The position numbers were made by a program, and so were the translations under genes. The notes under the pieces were generated by a model. It did no database searches. It saw only the letters and a program-made list of their open reading frames with translations, and was not told the origin of the DNA. Positions 15,112-18,020 of a stretch of DNA of 64,000 bases are shown here, piece by piece. The DNA comes from Thermoplasmatota archaeon (lineage in GTDB: Archaea; Thermoplasmatota; Thermoplasmata; UBA10834): assembly GCA_963818745.1 (NCBI GenBank), contig CAWFTI010000001.1:47345-111344 (forward strand), given 5' to 3'. Each line of letters opens with the position of its first letter. Position 1 is the stretch's first letter.

Positions 15112-15901
15112 TCAGCCGGAGAGAGATGTCGTCACCGAATACACGAGCTCGCAATCTGGCGTGTCGCCATCTTCTGCTCCAGAGGACTCCCAAACGCCGT
15201 CGAACGGGAGGGATATCTGATGGTCGACCGATTCGAGCCCATCCGACGGGCTGTAGTCCATGATCTCGTAATCGGTCACGTTCGTCTCGCTCACGGACCA
15301 GACGTCGTACGCTATGATCTTGAACCCGAACGACTCCAGCCCGTCCTCGACATCGACCGTGACGTTGAAGAAGTCCTCGAGGGAGAGCACGTAGACGAAC
15401 ATCTCGCTGTCGAAGGTGACATCGTACGAGCCGTCGCCGTCGGCATCGAACTCACCTGGAACCACGGGTTCGGGATAGTATCTCCATCTGTAGTACGGAT
15501 TCCTCATACCCGAGGAAGTCGAACGAGTCGAGGGATATGGACACGACTCCGTTGCCCCCGTCGAAGAAGTCGCTCACATCTCCAACGCCGTCTCCGTCCG
15601 AGTCCGCAGTCTCCGTCTTGTCGGTCGGGAACGCGTCCGAGTTGTCCCCGACACCGTCCTTGTCGGTGTCGAACTGCTCTGAGGGGTCACGCGGGAACTC
15701 GTCCGAGACGTTCACGGTCCCGTCTTCATCCCAATCACCAACTGAGGCGAGGGGCGAGAGCGATGGTGTGAGAACGACATAGAAGGCAAGCATGAGCATC
15801 GTGATCACGACGATGGTCGATGTTAACACCGTGATGTGCGCAGTTCTCTCGACCTCATCGCTCAATCCAGCTTTCCCTCCTTCGCCAGCATGAATATTCA
15901 C
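15112..15901 (-). CDS. membrane-anchored acidic protein with thrombospondin type-3-like Ca-binding repeats (frameshift ~15505; start uncertain)
   Basis: N-terminal TM, then DEFPRDPSEQFDTDKDGVGDNSDAFPTDKTETADSDGDGVGDVSD; ORFs 15452..15901 and 15112..15507. Confidence 0.7.
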
Positions 15902-15925
15902 GCACGCTCGCTATAATACTTGCCC

Positions 15926-16080
15926 GGTTCTGTTGCATCATCGGGTGGTGACCTCCAGGCCACTCACCCTGATCGCAACTCGTTCCATTCGGCTCCGACC
16001 GTGCGCCCCTCTCGGGGTCGTATAGGACCATCATCACGTCATGCTGGAACGCGCCGGGGCTGAACCGTAAGCCCCCTGCC
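15926..16080 (-). ncRNA. putative omega-RNA scaffold overlapping the tnpB 3' end
   Basis: Minus-strand stems: GGGGCT/AGCCCC; CGTTCCA/TGGAACG enclosing CCCC-GAGA-GGGG; long terminal hairpin GTTGC..GGGTG..GTGGCC-TGGA-GGTCAC..CACCC..GCAAC (15979-15932) ending 6 nt before the element boundary. Confidence 0.65.
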
Positions 16081-17175
16081 ATCCCTTCCGGGAAGGCTGT
16101 CTGCAGCAGATTGATGCTGGCGTTGACATGCCTGTCCGCCTGCCAGCCGCACTCGCACTCGAACCGGGCGCCCATTCGGGAATGTTGTATCCTCCCACAT
16201 ATCGGGCACCTCCTGCTGCTGTTGTATCGGATCCACCTTGACCACGGGCATGCCTCTCCAGGCGGCCTTGTACTCTATGATCTGATGGAGCTTCCTCCTC
16301 GGCCACATGCTCAGACGCCTGTTCAGGACCTTGTCCCTCCTCGGCTTGAACACCCCTTCAGGTCCTCGAGCACTATCGCGGCCTTCCGCTCCTCGGCGAA
16401 GTCCAGCGACCGCGTTCGCCACCTGGTGCATCCGGTACTCGATCCTGCGATGCTCCCTCCTCCCCTCCTTCCGGCACAGGCGCCGCGAGGTCCGCCGGTC
16501 ATGCGCCTTCTTCTTCTGAAGGCGCTTCCGCCGGTCATGATGGCGTGCCTGGATGACGGCCACTTCGTCGAAGGCGGCCCTGGCGGGCGTGCTCACCCCG
16601 TCCTCGAAGAACACGCCGTCCAGGCTCCTCTCGTTCGTGTCGAGCGAGAGGACGGTCTCGGGCACGTACGGCTTCCTCTCCCCCTTCCTGAAGGCGACCA
16701 CGACCCGGTCGGGAAGGACCGTCAGAGAACCGAGGGAAAGGGCGTGGTCGTCCAGGTACCTCCGGTGATACTGGCTGACGACGAGCCTCAGCTCGACATG
16801 CAGACCAGCCCGTATCGGCAGGTCGATGACGCCGTTCACCCGGTCGAGCTTGTAGGCCTGGTTCTCCGCCTTCATCATCAGGCGCTTGACATAGGGGATG
16901 TGCCGCTGGAGCCCCCTTCTGAGGCGCCTCCGGTGGTTCTTCAGGACGCTCCCAGCGACCTCGAACGCGGAGACGAGATGCTGGGAGTACATCCTGGGAT
17001 GGTCCTTGCGGAAGTCCTTGTATGCCAGCTTCGCGAGGGCGTTCCTCGAGCTCACCCGCGCCTGGAGGCCTGCCCGGATCGCGTTGTTGACCGCCAGCCT
17101 GAAGTCCTCGAGCAGGAACTTCGCCTCGGACGGAAGCTCAGACTCGAGCTGGAAGACCACCCCTCTGACCGGCAT
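15926..17175 (-). CDS. tnpB: TnpB-family RNA-guided nuclease homolog (about 3 frameshifts; true stop unresolved)
   Basis: RuvC-I VLSLDTNERS; bridge-helix-like EHRRIEYRMHQVAN; RuvC-II AIVLEDLKG; LNRRLSMW..IEYKAAWRGMPVVKVDP; Zn finger CPIC..CEC; RuvC-III ADRHVNASINL. Pieced from ORFs 16039..17175, 16323..16538, 15855..16175. Confidence 0.9.
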
Positions 17176-17340
17176 CTCAGCCAGTGACGTGCGTTCGGGA
17201 CATTACTCTCTGTCGATTACATGCAGTCGAAAGCAAGATGAAGGAGCTGGCATCGGCTCCCGTCCGCCTTCACCACCCGACTTTGAACAGAACCCTTTCG
17301 CAGAAAAGCATAAAATACGCTCGACTGTCTCCGTTCTCTC

Positions 17341-17872
17341 GTGAGGAGTGCTGCTACGGCGGGCAGGATATGTGTTCTCGGCATGGCGACTTCCGCCGTG
17401 GTAATCGTCCTCATGGCCTACAGGGCTCTTGCCTACCCCGAGGAGGAGGCCTGGGTGGTTCTCGACGATGTCGGATGGGGGGTCCTCGTGTCGGCTATCG
17501 CCGGCTTCGCAGTATCCTTCGCGCTCCTGGTACATGCCAGGTACCTGCGAGAGCGGGCCGAGACGGGAGCGCCTGAGATGCAGGCCGTGACCCCCGTCGG
17601 TCCGGAGCTATCGGAAGGGGTGCCCGAGAAAGCGCAGGAGGAACCCGCGCAGGAACGCCCTGAACCCGACCTGAGCAGGCTGTCGAAGGACGAGAGGAGG
17701 CTGTACGAGCAGGATCAAGGAGGCGGGGGGAGAGGTCCTGCAGATGAAACTCGTCGCCTCCGGCGAGTTCTCGAAGTCCAAGGTCACGAGGCTCTTGGAC
17801 AGGCTGGAGTCGCGGGGCCTCATCGTCCGGGAGCGCAGCGGGATGACGAACCGAGTGAGGCTCAGGAGATAG
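17341..17872 (+). CDS. two-TM membrane protein with C-terminal winged HTH (COG2512-like; frameshift ~17712)
   Basis: Two hydrophobic helices, then LSKDERRLY / IKEAGGEVLQMKLVASGEFSKSKVTRLLDRLESRGLIVRERSGMTNRVRL. Confidence 0.8.
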
Positions 17873-18020
17873 CGCGCCTGCGGCCAGGGAAGCCTCACTG
17901 ACCTTTCGGATTTCGTCGTTCTGCAACTGATTTCACGCGAGGCTTTACGTGGTATTTCACCGATGTACGTCGATTGGGGCATACTGGACAGTATGCCCGA
18001 TTCGAATAGGAGGGAGGACA

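What the first reader, a model, noticed from the sequence alone, without database searches (positions are those of the whole stretch)
15926..17294. TnpB packaged between IS6-family-type terminal inverted repeats, with no transposase
Seen: the tnpB gene is bounded by 25-26-bp inverted repeats, GGTTCTGTT-GCATCA-TCGGGTGGTGA and GGTTCTGTT-CAAAG-TCGGGTGGTGA (9 + 11 identical bp). No tnpA (Y1 or serine) or DDE gene lies inside or nearby, and there is no 8-bp TSD. Known: IS200/IS605 and IS607, the usual TnpB hosts, lack terminal IRs, while IS6-family elements (IS257/IS431, ISS1, IS1216) begin GGTTCTGTTGCAAAGT. IS6 elements move replicatively via cointegrates and often lack flanking DRs. Inference: a non-autonomous element in which an RNA-guided TnpB module is mobilised in trans by an IS6 DDE transposase. 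Replicative IS6 transposition leaves no excised donor site, so the standard TnpB homing role would not apply. TnpB may have been repurposed here, for example for target selection, regulation or element competition.
Basis: partly seen in the sequence, partly recalled or inferred. Interest (0 to 1): 0.86.

Follow-up and report, generated by a model that had tools for sequence, protein, structure and literature searches.

The report
TnpB carried between IS6-like transposon ends
This is a decayed copy of a small mobile element from uncultured Thermoplasmata archaea that carries an RNA-guided nuclease gene (tnpB) but no transposase, borrows the ends of an IS6-like transposon, and lands just upstream of host gene promoters.

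Summary
Inverted repeats at 15926-15951 and 17270-17294 bound a minus-strand tnpB, with no transposase and no target duplication. The tnpB here carries three single-base frameshifts.

The element belongs to a large family. Relatives occur in 33 of 46 genomes of the same archaeal family and in other Thermoplasmata families. Among 29 independent full copies, 15 have a 9-bp target duplication (8 exact, 7 with one mismatch).

IS6-like DDE elements of the same class share three features with it:
- the end motif GGTTCTGT-N-CGGGTG;
- the 9-bp duplication;
- the insertion geometry, with one end 9 bp from a TTB/VAA motif followed by a TATA-like box of a host promoter.

A 364-bp remnant of such an IS6-like element lies in this genome. 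No intact transposase was found in it.

Contigs from other metagenomes hold the empty site. They show that the window copy lost 25 bp next to its omega-RNA end, which explains the missing duplication.

Mobilisation in trans by an IS6-like transposase is well supported.

DDE-linked TnpBs with inverted ends are published, so I rate this a new variant of a known kind.

The parts
15926..15951 (+). Terminal inverted repeat at the omega-RNA (3') side of tnpB, called RE here: GGTTCTGTTGCATCATCGGGTGGTGA
   Evidence: The same end type recurs in relatives. Homology to empty-site alleles stops at 15925/15926.
15926..16130 (-). Presumed omega-RNA scaffold region. It overlaps the 3' end of tnpB and runs to the element terminus. 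The guide would start in the flank at 15925 and read leftwards.
   Evidence: This is the most conserved part between the two subfamilies. In an alignment of 24 copies, 34 base pairs were predicted and 15 show compensatory changes. MITEs in this genome keep only this part, at 96-97% identity. There is no Rfam match. That it is an omega RNA is inferred from position and conservation, not shown.
15975..17175 (-). tnpB, disrupted by three single-base frameshifts near 16406, 16352 and 16228
   Evidence: Three-frame reading. PF07282 scores 22.9 bits here against 74 bits in the intact relative L026. PDB matches are to TnpB and Cas12f. Related metagenome contigs carry +C after 16352, -1 at 16228 and -1 at 16406/16408.
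17176..17269 (-). Untranslated left-end region between the inverted repeat and the tnpB start
   Evidence: It is shorter than in the second subfamily, where it is about 340 bp.
17270..17294 (-). Terminal inverted repeat at the 5' side of tnpB, called LE here: reverse complement GGTTCTGTTCAAAGTCGGGTGGTGA
   Evidence: The empty-site contig of run X1 rejoins at 17294.
17295..17303 (.). The 9 bp (CTTTCGCAG) at the position of the target duplication. Only this LE-side copy survives.
   Evidence: The family rule is a 9-bp duplication. The empty allele holds one copy followed by 16 bp that the window lacks.
17304..17317 (+). Host core promoter facing away from the element: AAA (BRE-like; TTT on the tnpB strand), 3 nt, then ATAAAATA (TATA-like)
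   Evidence: Sequence. The same geometry is seen in 54 of 61 independent LE flanks. The GTG start of the divergent gene lies 47 nt from LE.
17341..17901 (+). Divergent host gene (186 aa ORF) whose promoter the element abuts

Best explanation
The stretch 15926-17294 is a non-autonomous transposable element. It is a tnpB gene plus its presumed omega-RNA region, packaged between the terminal inverted repeats of an archaeal IS6-like transposon family.

The transposase of that family is about 390 aa: SWIM zinc finger, zinc ribbon, HTH and a DDE_Tnp_IS240 domain. The element carries no transposase of its own. It is moved in trans by such a DDE enzyme, which makes a 9-bp target duplication.

The transposition system places one end exactly 9 bp from the BRE-like AA of an archaeal BRE/TATA promoter. 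In TnpB elements that end is always the 5' (LE) end, so tnpB reads away from the host gene.

The window copy is an old, stranded copy:
- this assembly holds only a 364-bp remnant of the IS6-like element and no transposase;
- tnpB has three frameshifts;
- 25 bp next to the omega end, including one copy of the duplication, have been deleted. Adjacent deletion is a known IS6/IS26-type event.

Shown: the boundaries, the duplications, the shared ends and target geometry with IS6-like elements, and the empty alleles.

Inferred: trans-mobilisation, replicative chemistry, the omega-RNA function, and that TnpB drives the element into empty alleles using the TTB next to the duplication as its TAM.
For: 1. 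Family in this genome. Four more long tnpB copies lie at 77-79% identity, plus fragments. Both subfamilies begin with GGTTCTGTTGC-type inverted repeats.

2. Relatives. TnpB of this clade occurs in 33 of 46 genomes of the family and 68 of 401 sampled genomes of the class.

3. Duplications. Of 29 independent full elements (1310-1594 bp), 8 have an exact 9-bp direct repeat and 7 have one mismatch. Re-pairing the flanks at random gives about 0.55. A TnpB at 45% identity in another family (L130) has the same ends and an exact 9-bp repeat.

4. The partner.
- IS6-like elements L098, L108, L144 and L147 have ends GGTTCTGT/GGTACTGT-N-CGGGTG and exact 9-bp repeats. That is 4 of the 5 with both ends in hand; L107 has none.
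- The transposase scores 82.6 bits on PF13610 and 23.3 bits on SWIM.
- The own genome holds a remnant with both ends and about 105 C-terminal transposase codons.

5. Shared target geometry.
- 54 of 61 independent LE flanks have TT at -12/-11; the background TT frequency is 2.9%.
- AT content at -21..-16 is 79%, against 49% further upstream.
- The first divergent ORF starts 44-50 nt from LE in 17 of 51 cases.
- IS6-like elements without tnpB show [end][9 bp][VAA][3 nt][TATA-like] too: upstream of an RHH gene in 9 loci of this family and 4 of another, and upstream of pyrG in L144. L147 has the TATA-like box but AGG in place of VAA.

6. Empty sites.
- The orthologous locus in G001 lacks the element.
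- One DNA-run contig joins 15926 to 17294 with 14 other letters between.
- Two contigs from RNA libraries join 15926 to 17303 with 23 other letters between.

7. Rival transposases. Y1 genes occur in 4 of 46 genomes but sit beside a tnpB of 24.8% identity without these ends.
Against: - No fetched locus holds both genes: 0 of 281, of which 52 have IS6-like hits and 220 have TnpB hits. The link rests on shared ends, duplication length and target geometry.
- In the window's own family the IS6-like transposase was found only as fragments. It hit 12 of 49 genomes of the order, and none of those hits was full length.
- 49 of the 68 TnpB-positive genomes of the class sample have no IS6-like hit.
- The complete genome G018 has four TnpB copies only 77-78% alike and no IS6-like hit.
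- 14 of 29 full elements lack the duplication.
- The second subfamily in this genome makes 6-bp, not 9-bp, repeats (7 of 8 copies). It may use another enzyme.
- The two ends are too alike to say which TnpB end matches which IS6 end.
- The tnpB-less controls for target geometry come from few independent sites, mainly the RHH promoter and pyrG.
- The three frameshifts could be assembly errors.
Confidence: 0.75

Rival explanations
1. The ends belong to a dedicated, still unidentified transposase, or to TnpB itself. Their likeness to IS6 ends would then be shared ancestry or convergence without present-day use of an IS6-like enzyme.
For: - TnpB copies are far commoner than IS6-like transposase genes: 33 of 46 against 4 of 46 genomes for PF13610 in the family.
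- No intact IS6-like gene of the matching clade was found in the order.
- The second subfamily has 6-bp repeats.
- No locus holds both genes.
Against: - IS6-like elements share the end motif, the 9-bp duplication and the very specific promoter-proximal geometry.
- No other transposase family was found in the own genome: 5 Pfam families, 0 hits each.
- The duplication lies next to the TAM-like position. That is not where TnpB or Cas12 nucleases are known to cut, which is TAM-distal (recalled knowledge).
Confidence: 0.12
2. Because IS6 transposition is replicative, TnpB has lost its homing role and was repurposed, for example to choose targets: TnpB would read TTB as a TAM and recruit the transposase.
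For: The TT motif at a fixed 9-bp offset is stronger than the TATA-like signal. T is 54 and 59 of 61 at -12 and -11, against at most 37 of 61 for any TATA position.
Against: - IS6-like elements and remnants with no tnpB and no omega region show the same offset motif.
- The guide of a donor copy cannot match a new target.
- The catalytic residues D187, E278 and D354 are invariant in the 6 aligned intact relatives, as expected for an active nuclease.
Confidence: 0.08
3. This is an ordinary IS200/IS605 (IS1341-type) or IS607-type TnpB element. Its true ends would be subterminal hairpins, and the inverted repeats would be chance or belong to an older IS6 MITE into which it inserted.
For: A small GGAGC/GCTCC hairpin exists near 17243-17260 (finding). 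TnpB-only elements are usually filed under IS1341.
Against: - Boundaries coincide with the inverted repeats in 29 independent full copies, and 15 have 9-bp duplications.
- Empty alleles break at the repeat tips.
- Y1 genes of the lineage go with another tnpB.
- No Y1 or serine recombinase gene is present in this genome.
Confidence: 0.03

Closest known systems
DDE-transposase-associated TnpB branches (Altae-Tran et al. 2023, PNAS, PMC10691335; I read section 9 and passages found by term search)
   Same: - TnpB sits inside transposons with inverted terminal repeats.
- The TnpB 3' end lies within 250 bp of a transposon end; here it is about 50 bp.
- Solo TnpBs have the same ends as transposase-bearing elements, from which the authors suggest mobilisation in trans.
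   Different: - The only DDE family named in the text I could read is IS630. A 2026 review (PMC13565253, passages) names ISL2, IS630 and IS1031.
- IS6 or IS240 is not named in either main text (whole-word search: 0 hits in each). The supplements were closed and may list it.
- Here no copy with both genes was found.
- The 9-bp offset from a promoter BRE/TATA is not described in the parts I read.
IS6/IS26 family, archaeal branch (Harmer and Hall 2019, PMC6807381, passages; Varani et al. 2021, PMC7986276, passages)
   Same: - The ends start GG and carry the cTGTt motif.
- The partner transposase has a DDE_Tnp_IS240 domain, and its C-terminal motif IERLHGxEKxRxK is close to the archaeal signature E--F---K-R (H in place of F).
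- A 9-bp duplication is on record for ISPfu5.
- MITE derivatives exist.
- Deletion of adjacent DNA that removes one duplication copy is a known outcome.
   Different: - The window element has no transposase at all. Its cargo is tnpB, whereas the review lists one family member with a passenger gene and never mentions TnpB.
- The partner elements are about 2.1-2.4 kb with a roughly 390-aa SWIM-bearing transposase, against about 800 bp and 215-240 aa for typical members.
- Insertion is strongly site-directed, upstream of BRE/TATA.
IS1341 group of IS200/IS605 (TnpB-only elements)
   Same: There is a single tnpB gene with a conserved structured region at its 3' end, no transposase, many copies, and MITE-like derivatives that keep the 3' end.
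   Different: IS200/IS605 elements have no terminal inverted repeats and make no duplications (review PMC13565253, passage). This family has both.
Fanzor (eukaryotic TnpB homologues) inside DDE transposons
   Same: An RNA-guided nuclease rides as cargo in transposons bounded by inverted repeats that make target duplications.
   Different: Those are eukaryotic or viral, with other transposase superfamilies. No relation was tested here.

Membership tests
TnpB (RNA-guided nuclease, Cas12f1-like TNB domain) | Match to PF07282 above the curated cut-off | tested here: met
   The intact relatives L026 and L130 score 74 and 69.8 bits against a cut-off of 26.3. The window's longest frame scores only 22.9 bits because of its frameshifts.
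TnpB (RNA-guided nuclease, Cas12f1-like TNB domain) | RuvC catalytic Asp, Glu, Asp and a CxxC...CxxC zinc finger | tested here: met
   D187 (LDTNE), E278 (LED), D354 (DRH), C330 and C347/C349 are invariant in 6 aligned relatives. The E and D motifs align with the solved TnpB-like protein 8hr5_A. In the window copy the motifs are present but lie in different frames.
TnpB (RNA-guided nuclease, Cas12f1-like TNB domain) | Omega RNA encoded at or over the 3' end of the gene, ending at the element terminus | tested here: inconclusive
   There is a conserved structure with 15 of 34 pairs showing compensatory change. There is no Rfam family match. Contigs from RNA libraries cover the region, but DNA runs show the same depth profile, so expression is not shown.
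IS200/IS605 | Y1 (HUH) TnpA in the element or as a trans partner | tested here: not met
   PF01797 gave 0 hits in the own genome. It occurs in 4 of 46 family genomes, but beside a tnpB of 24.8% identity that lacks these ends.
IS200/IS605 | No terminal inverted repeats and no target duplication | tested here: not met
   Inverted repeats are present in all copies examined. A 9-bp duplication is present in 15 of 29 independent full elements.
IS607 | Serine recombinase TnpA; no inverted repeats; no duplication | tested here: not met
   PF00239 gave 0 hits in the own genome. Inverted repeats and duplications are present.
IS6/IS26 family (as a non-autonomous derivative) | Terminal inverted repeats starting GG with the cTGTt motif | tested here: met
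   The ends read GGTTCTGTTGCA... and GGTTCTGTTCAAAG.... The consensus is taken from the review passage. The same motif plus CGGGTG is found on IS6-like elements of the class.
IS6/IS26 family (as a non-autonomous derivative) | DDE_Tnp_IS240 transposase encoded by the element | tested here: not met
   There is none inside the element, none in the assembly, and none next to any of 220 TnpB loci. Membership therefore holds only as a non-autonomous derivative.
IS6/IS26 family (as a non-autonomous derivative) | 8-bp target duplication | tested here: not met
   The family makes 9 bp, as do its IS6-like partners. A 9-bp duplication is on record for the archaeal member ISPfu5. The window copy has none.
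IS6/IS26 family (as a non-autonomous derivative) | Replicative transposition through cointegrates | not testable with these tools
   There are only indirect hints: a 25-bp deletion flush with one end, and pairs of ends 9 bp apart at hot spots.
DDE-associated TnpB (Altae-Tran 2023) | Inverted terminal repeats around tnpB, with the TnpB 3' end within 250 bp of an end | tested here: met
   The ends lie at 15926 and 17294. TnpB homology ends near 15975.

The most novel reading that the evidence does not exclude
A DDE transposon and TnpB have re-created the IS605 logic by other means.

- The IS6-like system always inserts 9 bp from the BRE of an archaeal promoter, in one orientation.
- tnpB sits so that its omega-RNA guide reads the 9-bp duplication plus the flank.
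- The BRE-derived TTB lies exactly where a TAM must be in the empty allele.

TnpB could then cut every still-empty chromosome copy and drive the element to fixation in polyploid archaeal cells, as shown for IS605 in multicopy plasmids (preprint PMC11870625, abstract read).

The promoter targeting itself would be new for prokaryotic insertion sequences. It might work through TBP/TFB-bound DNA, as Ty3 uses TFIIIB (recalled knowledge).
Probability: 0.3. Interest if true: 0.85.

Novelty: new variant of a known kind. Interest (0 to 1): 0.66.

Why it matters
TnpB is the ancestor of Cas12, and its role has been worked out only for IS605 and IS607, which excise without a scar. Whether and how it serves transposons that make duplications is an open question.

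This family gives a clean natural case:
- hundreds of copies in uncultured Thermoplasmata;
- sharply defined ends;
- a fixed 9-bp duplication;
- a candidate three-letter TAM at a fixed place;
- a known kind of partner transposase.

That makes the question directly testable at the bench with one intact TnpB, one IS6-like transposase and a mini-element.

The 1-bp-precise placement upstream of BRE/TATA also suggests a way for an archaeal insertion sequence to avoid gene disruption, and possibly to use host promoters. I found no description of this in the papers searched.

For annotation, such elements should not be filed under IS200/IS605.

Tried and rejected
- IS605-type ends. I looked for Y1 transposases. 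There are none in the own genome. Those in G006, G009 and G014 sit beside an unrelated tnpB without these ends. Rejected.

- TTB at -12..-10 as a pure TnpB TAM produced by selection alone. I first read it this way (note). I then found that the motif is part of a BRE/TATA promoter of a divergent gene and that tnpB-less IS6-like elements show it too. The TAM role is kept only as an inference.

- LE equals IS6 IRL and RE equals IRR. I claimed this in my notes after and withdrew it. The two ends are too alike, and the promoter-facing end lies downstream of tnp in IS6-like elements but upstream of tnpB.

- A clean empty site in G001. The locus is empty, but the 15-23 bp at the joint do not align. 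The metagenome contigs were needed.

- Expression. Contigs from RNA libraries cover the omega region at the highest depth, but DNA runs show the same profile, so I make no claim. No run holds more than 14% of the words, and habitat labels were not used.

- Neighbour genes of the more distant TnpBs of family f11. The ORF lists were too noisy in this GC-rich DNA to call a transposase. One of these elements (L135) has different, longer inverted ends.

- Rfam: no match.

- Supplements of PMC10691335 could not be read. They may name the DDE families, possibly including IS6.

- No structure or complex prediction was run, and no tree was built.
Full report
OBSERVATION

The two inverted repeats are real and lie where the finding says.
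- GGTTCTGTT occurs only at 15926-15934 (+) and 17286-17294 (-) in the window. The shuffle expectation is 0.25 matches, and 3 of 100 shuffles reach two.
- The inner 11 nt, 15941-15951 and 17270-17280, are perfectly complementary.
- Between them a TnpB-like frame starts at 17175 on the minus strand.
- A three-frame reading shows the gene is broken three times. The RuvC-II motif (IVLEDLKG), the stretch up to VKVDP, and the zinc finger plus RuvC-III (CPICG...CECG...DRHVNASINLL) lie in alternating frames.
- There is no direct repeat at the flanks.
- There is no transposase inside. The whole assembly (1.57 Mb, 4 contigs, estimated completeness 68.8%) gave no hit for DDE_Tnp_IS240, Y1_Tnp, Resolvase, DDE_Tnp_1 or rve.

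THE FAMILY IN THIS GENOME

The assembly holds four more long tnpB copies at 77-79% nucleotide identity, plus fragments. A self-comparison shows this is the only multi-copy insertion sequence in the genome. All five long copies are frameshifted or truncated. There are two subfamilies.

- Window type ("A"). The ends read GGTTCTGT, then 6-7 nt, then TCGGGTGGTG. It has two MITEs of about 410 bp (C1:329034-329444 and C3:482660-483069). These keep only the 3' conserved region, at 96-97% identity. One is flanked by an exact 9-bp repeat; the other has 8 matching bp offset by one.
- Second type ("B"). The ends read GGTTCTGTTGCGAAA... and GGCTCTGTTGCAGAAC, and the length is 1590-1596 bp. Seven of 8 full copies, in this and related genomes, are flanked by AT-rich repeats of 6 bp (one of 7 bp).

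RELATIVES

With a 357-aa TnpB piece read from this genome, the clade is found in:
- 33 of 46 genomes of the same family, often in many copies and at contig ends, with intact ORFs of 405-420 aa;
- 68 of 401 sampled genomes of the class.

The named records are all MAGs labelled Thermoplasmata, Thermoplasmatota, Euryarchaeota, Methanobacteriota or Methanomassiliicoccales. Of 137 relatives, the best 80 were listed.

I located both ends in every fetched locus and removed near-identical flanks.
- 29 independent full A-type elements remained, 1310-1594 bp long.
- 8 have an exact 9-bp direct repeat and 7 have one mismatch. Re-pairing the flanks at random gives about 0.55. The other 14 have none.
- Elements whose TnpB is only 45-48% identical, from other families (L130, L122, L172), have the same ends and the same 9-bp repeats.

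The association between this TnpB clade and these ends is therefore old and clade-wide.

THE PARTNER

A 364-bp stretch of this genome (C1:609355-609718) has the same two ends. It encloses about 105 C-terminal codons of an IS6-type transposase, in three frames.

The matching protein in a relative (L012) served as a query.
- It hit 12 of 49 genomes of the order, all fragments.
- It hit 53 of 401 genomes of the class.
- In another family the elements are intact, at about 2.1-2.4 kb. The transposase scores 82.6 bits on DDE_Tnp_IS240 and 23.3 bits on SWIM.
- Their ends are GGTTCTGT or GGTACTGT, a few nt, then CGGGTG.
- Four of the five with both ends in hand (L098, L108, L144, L147) have exact 9-bp duplications.

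This is the evidence that the TnpB elements use IS6-like ends and chemistry.

Against it:
- No fetched locus holds both genes: 0 of 281, with 52 IS6-like and 220 TnpB loci.
- Only 19 of the 68 TnpB-positive genomes of the class sample have an IS6-like hit, against 34 of 333 TnpB-negative ones. Related genomes are not independent.
- The complete genome G018 has four copies only 77-78% alike and no IS6-like hit.

TARGET SITE

Read on the tnpB strand, the DNA outside LE is strikingly regular.
- In 61 independent flanks, T is found 54 times at -12 and 59 times at -11. TT at both positions occurs in 54 of 61, against a background of 2.9%.
- Position -10 is G, T or C in all but 5.
- Positions -21 to -16 are 79% A+T, against 49% further out.
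- The flank beyond RE shows no mirror motif.
- The first long ORF on the opposite strand starts 44-50 nt from LE in 17 of the 51 flanks that have one. In the window it is the GTG at 17341, at 47 nt.

This is the layout of an archaeal core promoter of a leaderless, divergent gene: TATA at about -30 to -25, the BRE AA at -36 to -34, and the duplication at -45 to -37. The promoter architecture is recalled knowledge.

IS6-like elements and remnants without tnpB show the same layout at one end, [end][9 bp][VAA][3 nt][TATA-like].
- They sit upstream of a conserved ribbon-helix-helix gene in nine loci of this family and four of another.
- One sits upstream of pyrG.
- L147 has the TATA-like box but AGG in place of VAA.
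- Pairs of ends exactly 9 bp apart show repeated hits at the same spot.

So site choice belongs to the transposition system, or to promoter-bound host factors, and not to TnpB. These tnpB-less controls come from few independent sites.

HISTORY OF THE WINDOW COPY

- The orthologous locus of a genome of the same genus (G001) lacks the element. Homology stops at 15925/15926 and resumes at 17310.
- Contigs from public runs give closer empty alleles. One DNA-run contig, with flanks 96.5% and 100% identical, joins 15926 to 17294 with 14 other letters between. Two contigs from RNA libraries join 15926 to 17303 with 23 other letters between.
- The empty allele thus holds one CTTTCGCAG followed by 16 bp that the window lacks. 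The window copy has lost 25 bp flush with RE, namely the second copy of the duplication plus 16 bp.
- In the empty allele the new junction (GGGCAAGTA) is itself preceded by TTC. This fits an intramolecular attack that obeys the same target rule. It is a single case and an inference.
- Related contigs (88-99% identical) carry single-base differences exactly at the three frameshift sites. The window copy therefore differs from its kin by three indels. Whether these are real or assembly errors cannot be told, because the source sample is not among the runs.

THE 3' REGION

The last 200 nt or so up to the RE tip are the most conserved part.
- An alignment of 24 copies from two families gives 34 predicted pairs, 15 with compensatory changes.
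- The inner repeat motif forms the 3' arm of a terminal hairpin, by my reading of the alignment.
- No Rfam family matches.
- If this is the omega RNA, as in other TnpB systems, its guide is the 9-bp duplication plus the flank.

MECHANISM

- Shown: the boundaries, the duplications, the shared ends and geometry, and the insertion polymorphism.
- Inferred: an IS6-like DDE enzyme supplied in trans moves the element, probably replicatively.
- Inferred, more weakly: TnpB still does what it does in IS605. It would cut the empty allele, which here reads TTB + duplication + flank. The occupied LE junction matches the guide for only 9 nt.
- The catalytic residues are invariant in six intact relatives.
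- A preprint shows such a drive for IS605 in multicopy plasmids (PMC11870625, abstract read).

LITERATURE

- Altae-Tran et al. 2023 (PMC10691335; section 9 and passages read) describe six DDE-associated TnpB branches with inverted terminal repeats, and solo TnpBs with the same ends. Only IS630 is named in the text I read.
- A 2026 review (PMC13565253, passages) names ISL2, IS630 and IS1031.
- Neither main text contains IS6 or IS240 as a whole word.
- The IS6 review (PMC7986276, passages) never mentions TnpB.
- Four full-text searches found no report of TnpB in IS6-type ends or of BRE-proximal targeting.
- The supplements were closed and may bear on this.

VERDICT

I rate it a new variant of a known kind, with a testable extra: promoter-anchored insertion that supplies a TAM-like motif.

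Noticed in passing
own genome, outside the window: C1:513137-514728, C3:573985-575580, C4:37287-38874, C1:~426900-428472; relatives L018, L019, L186-L188: A second TnpB subfamily, 85-87% protein identity among genomes and 1590-1596 bp long. Its ends are GGTTCTGTTGCGAAA and GGCTCTGTTGCAGAAC, without the CGGGTG motif. In 7 of 8 full copies it has AT-rich direct repeats of 6 bp rather than 9 bp, and it seems to sit in the TATA-like hexamer itself. It may use another transposase variant.
   Followed up: partly
own genome C3:88427-88485 and C1:579872-~579920: Mini-elements of about 50-60 bp made of two second-subfamily ends back to back. The first is flanked by ATAAT on both sides.
   Followed up: no
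own genome C1:329034-329444 and C3:482660-483069: Two MITEs of about 410 bp that keep only the presumed omega-RNA end of the window-type element (96-97% identity) plus a different inner segment. They could supply guide RNAs to a TnpB made elsewhere.
   Followed up: partly
own genome C1:609355-609718 and downstream; L046-L059, L098, L107, L108, L110, L147: IS6-like elements and remnants sit again and again directly upstream of the promoter of a conserved 104-aa ribbon-helix-helix gene (PF01402) with operator-like repeats (CTGACA..TGTCTGAC). This holds in two archaeal families. It is unclear whether this gene is a preferred landing site or part of a larger mobile unit. A 2026 preprint (search listing only) reports RHH 'Arc' proteins in IS605-family elements.
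   Followed up: partly
L278-L280 (G009, G006, G014): Classical IS605-type pairs (a Y1 transposase of 136-149 aa beside a distant tnpB of 24.8% identity) coexist with the IS6-ended TnpB family in some genomes of the same archaeal family.
   Followed up: partly
L135 (G184:C51), about 1440-2880: A TnpB at 37% identity from another family has different, longer inverted ends (..CGGCTTTGGGATTCTGT..). It also lies next to pyrG. Ends bounded by inverted repeats may be wider in this TnpB lineage than the GGTTCTGT type.
   Followed up: no
window 15890-15925: The RE side of the element abuts a second host promoter that faces leftwards (TATTATAG about 25 nt before an ATG at 15892, read on the minus strand). 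The element therefore lies between two divergent promoters.
   Followed up: no
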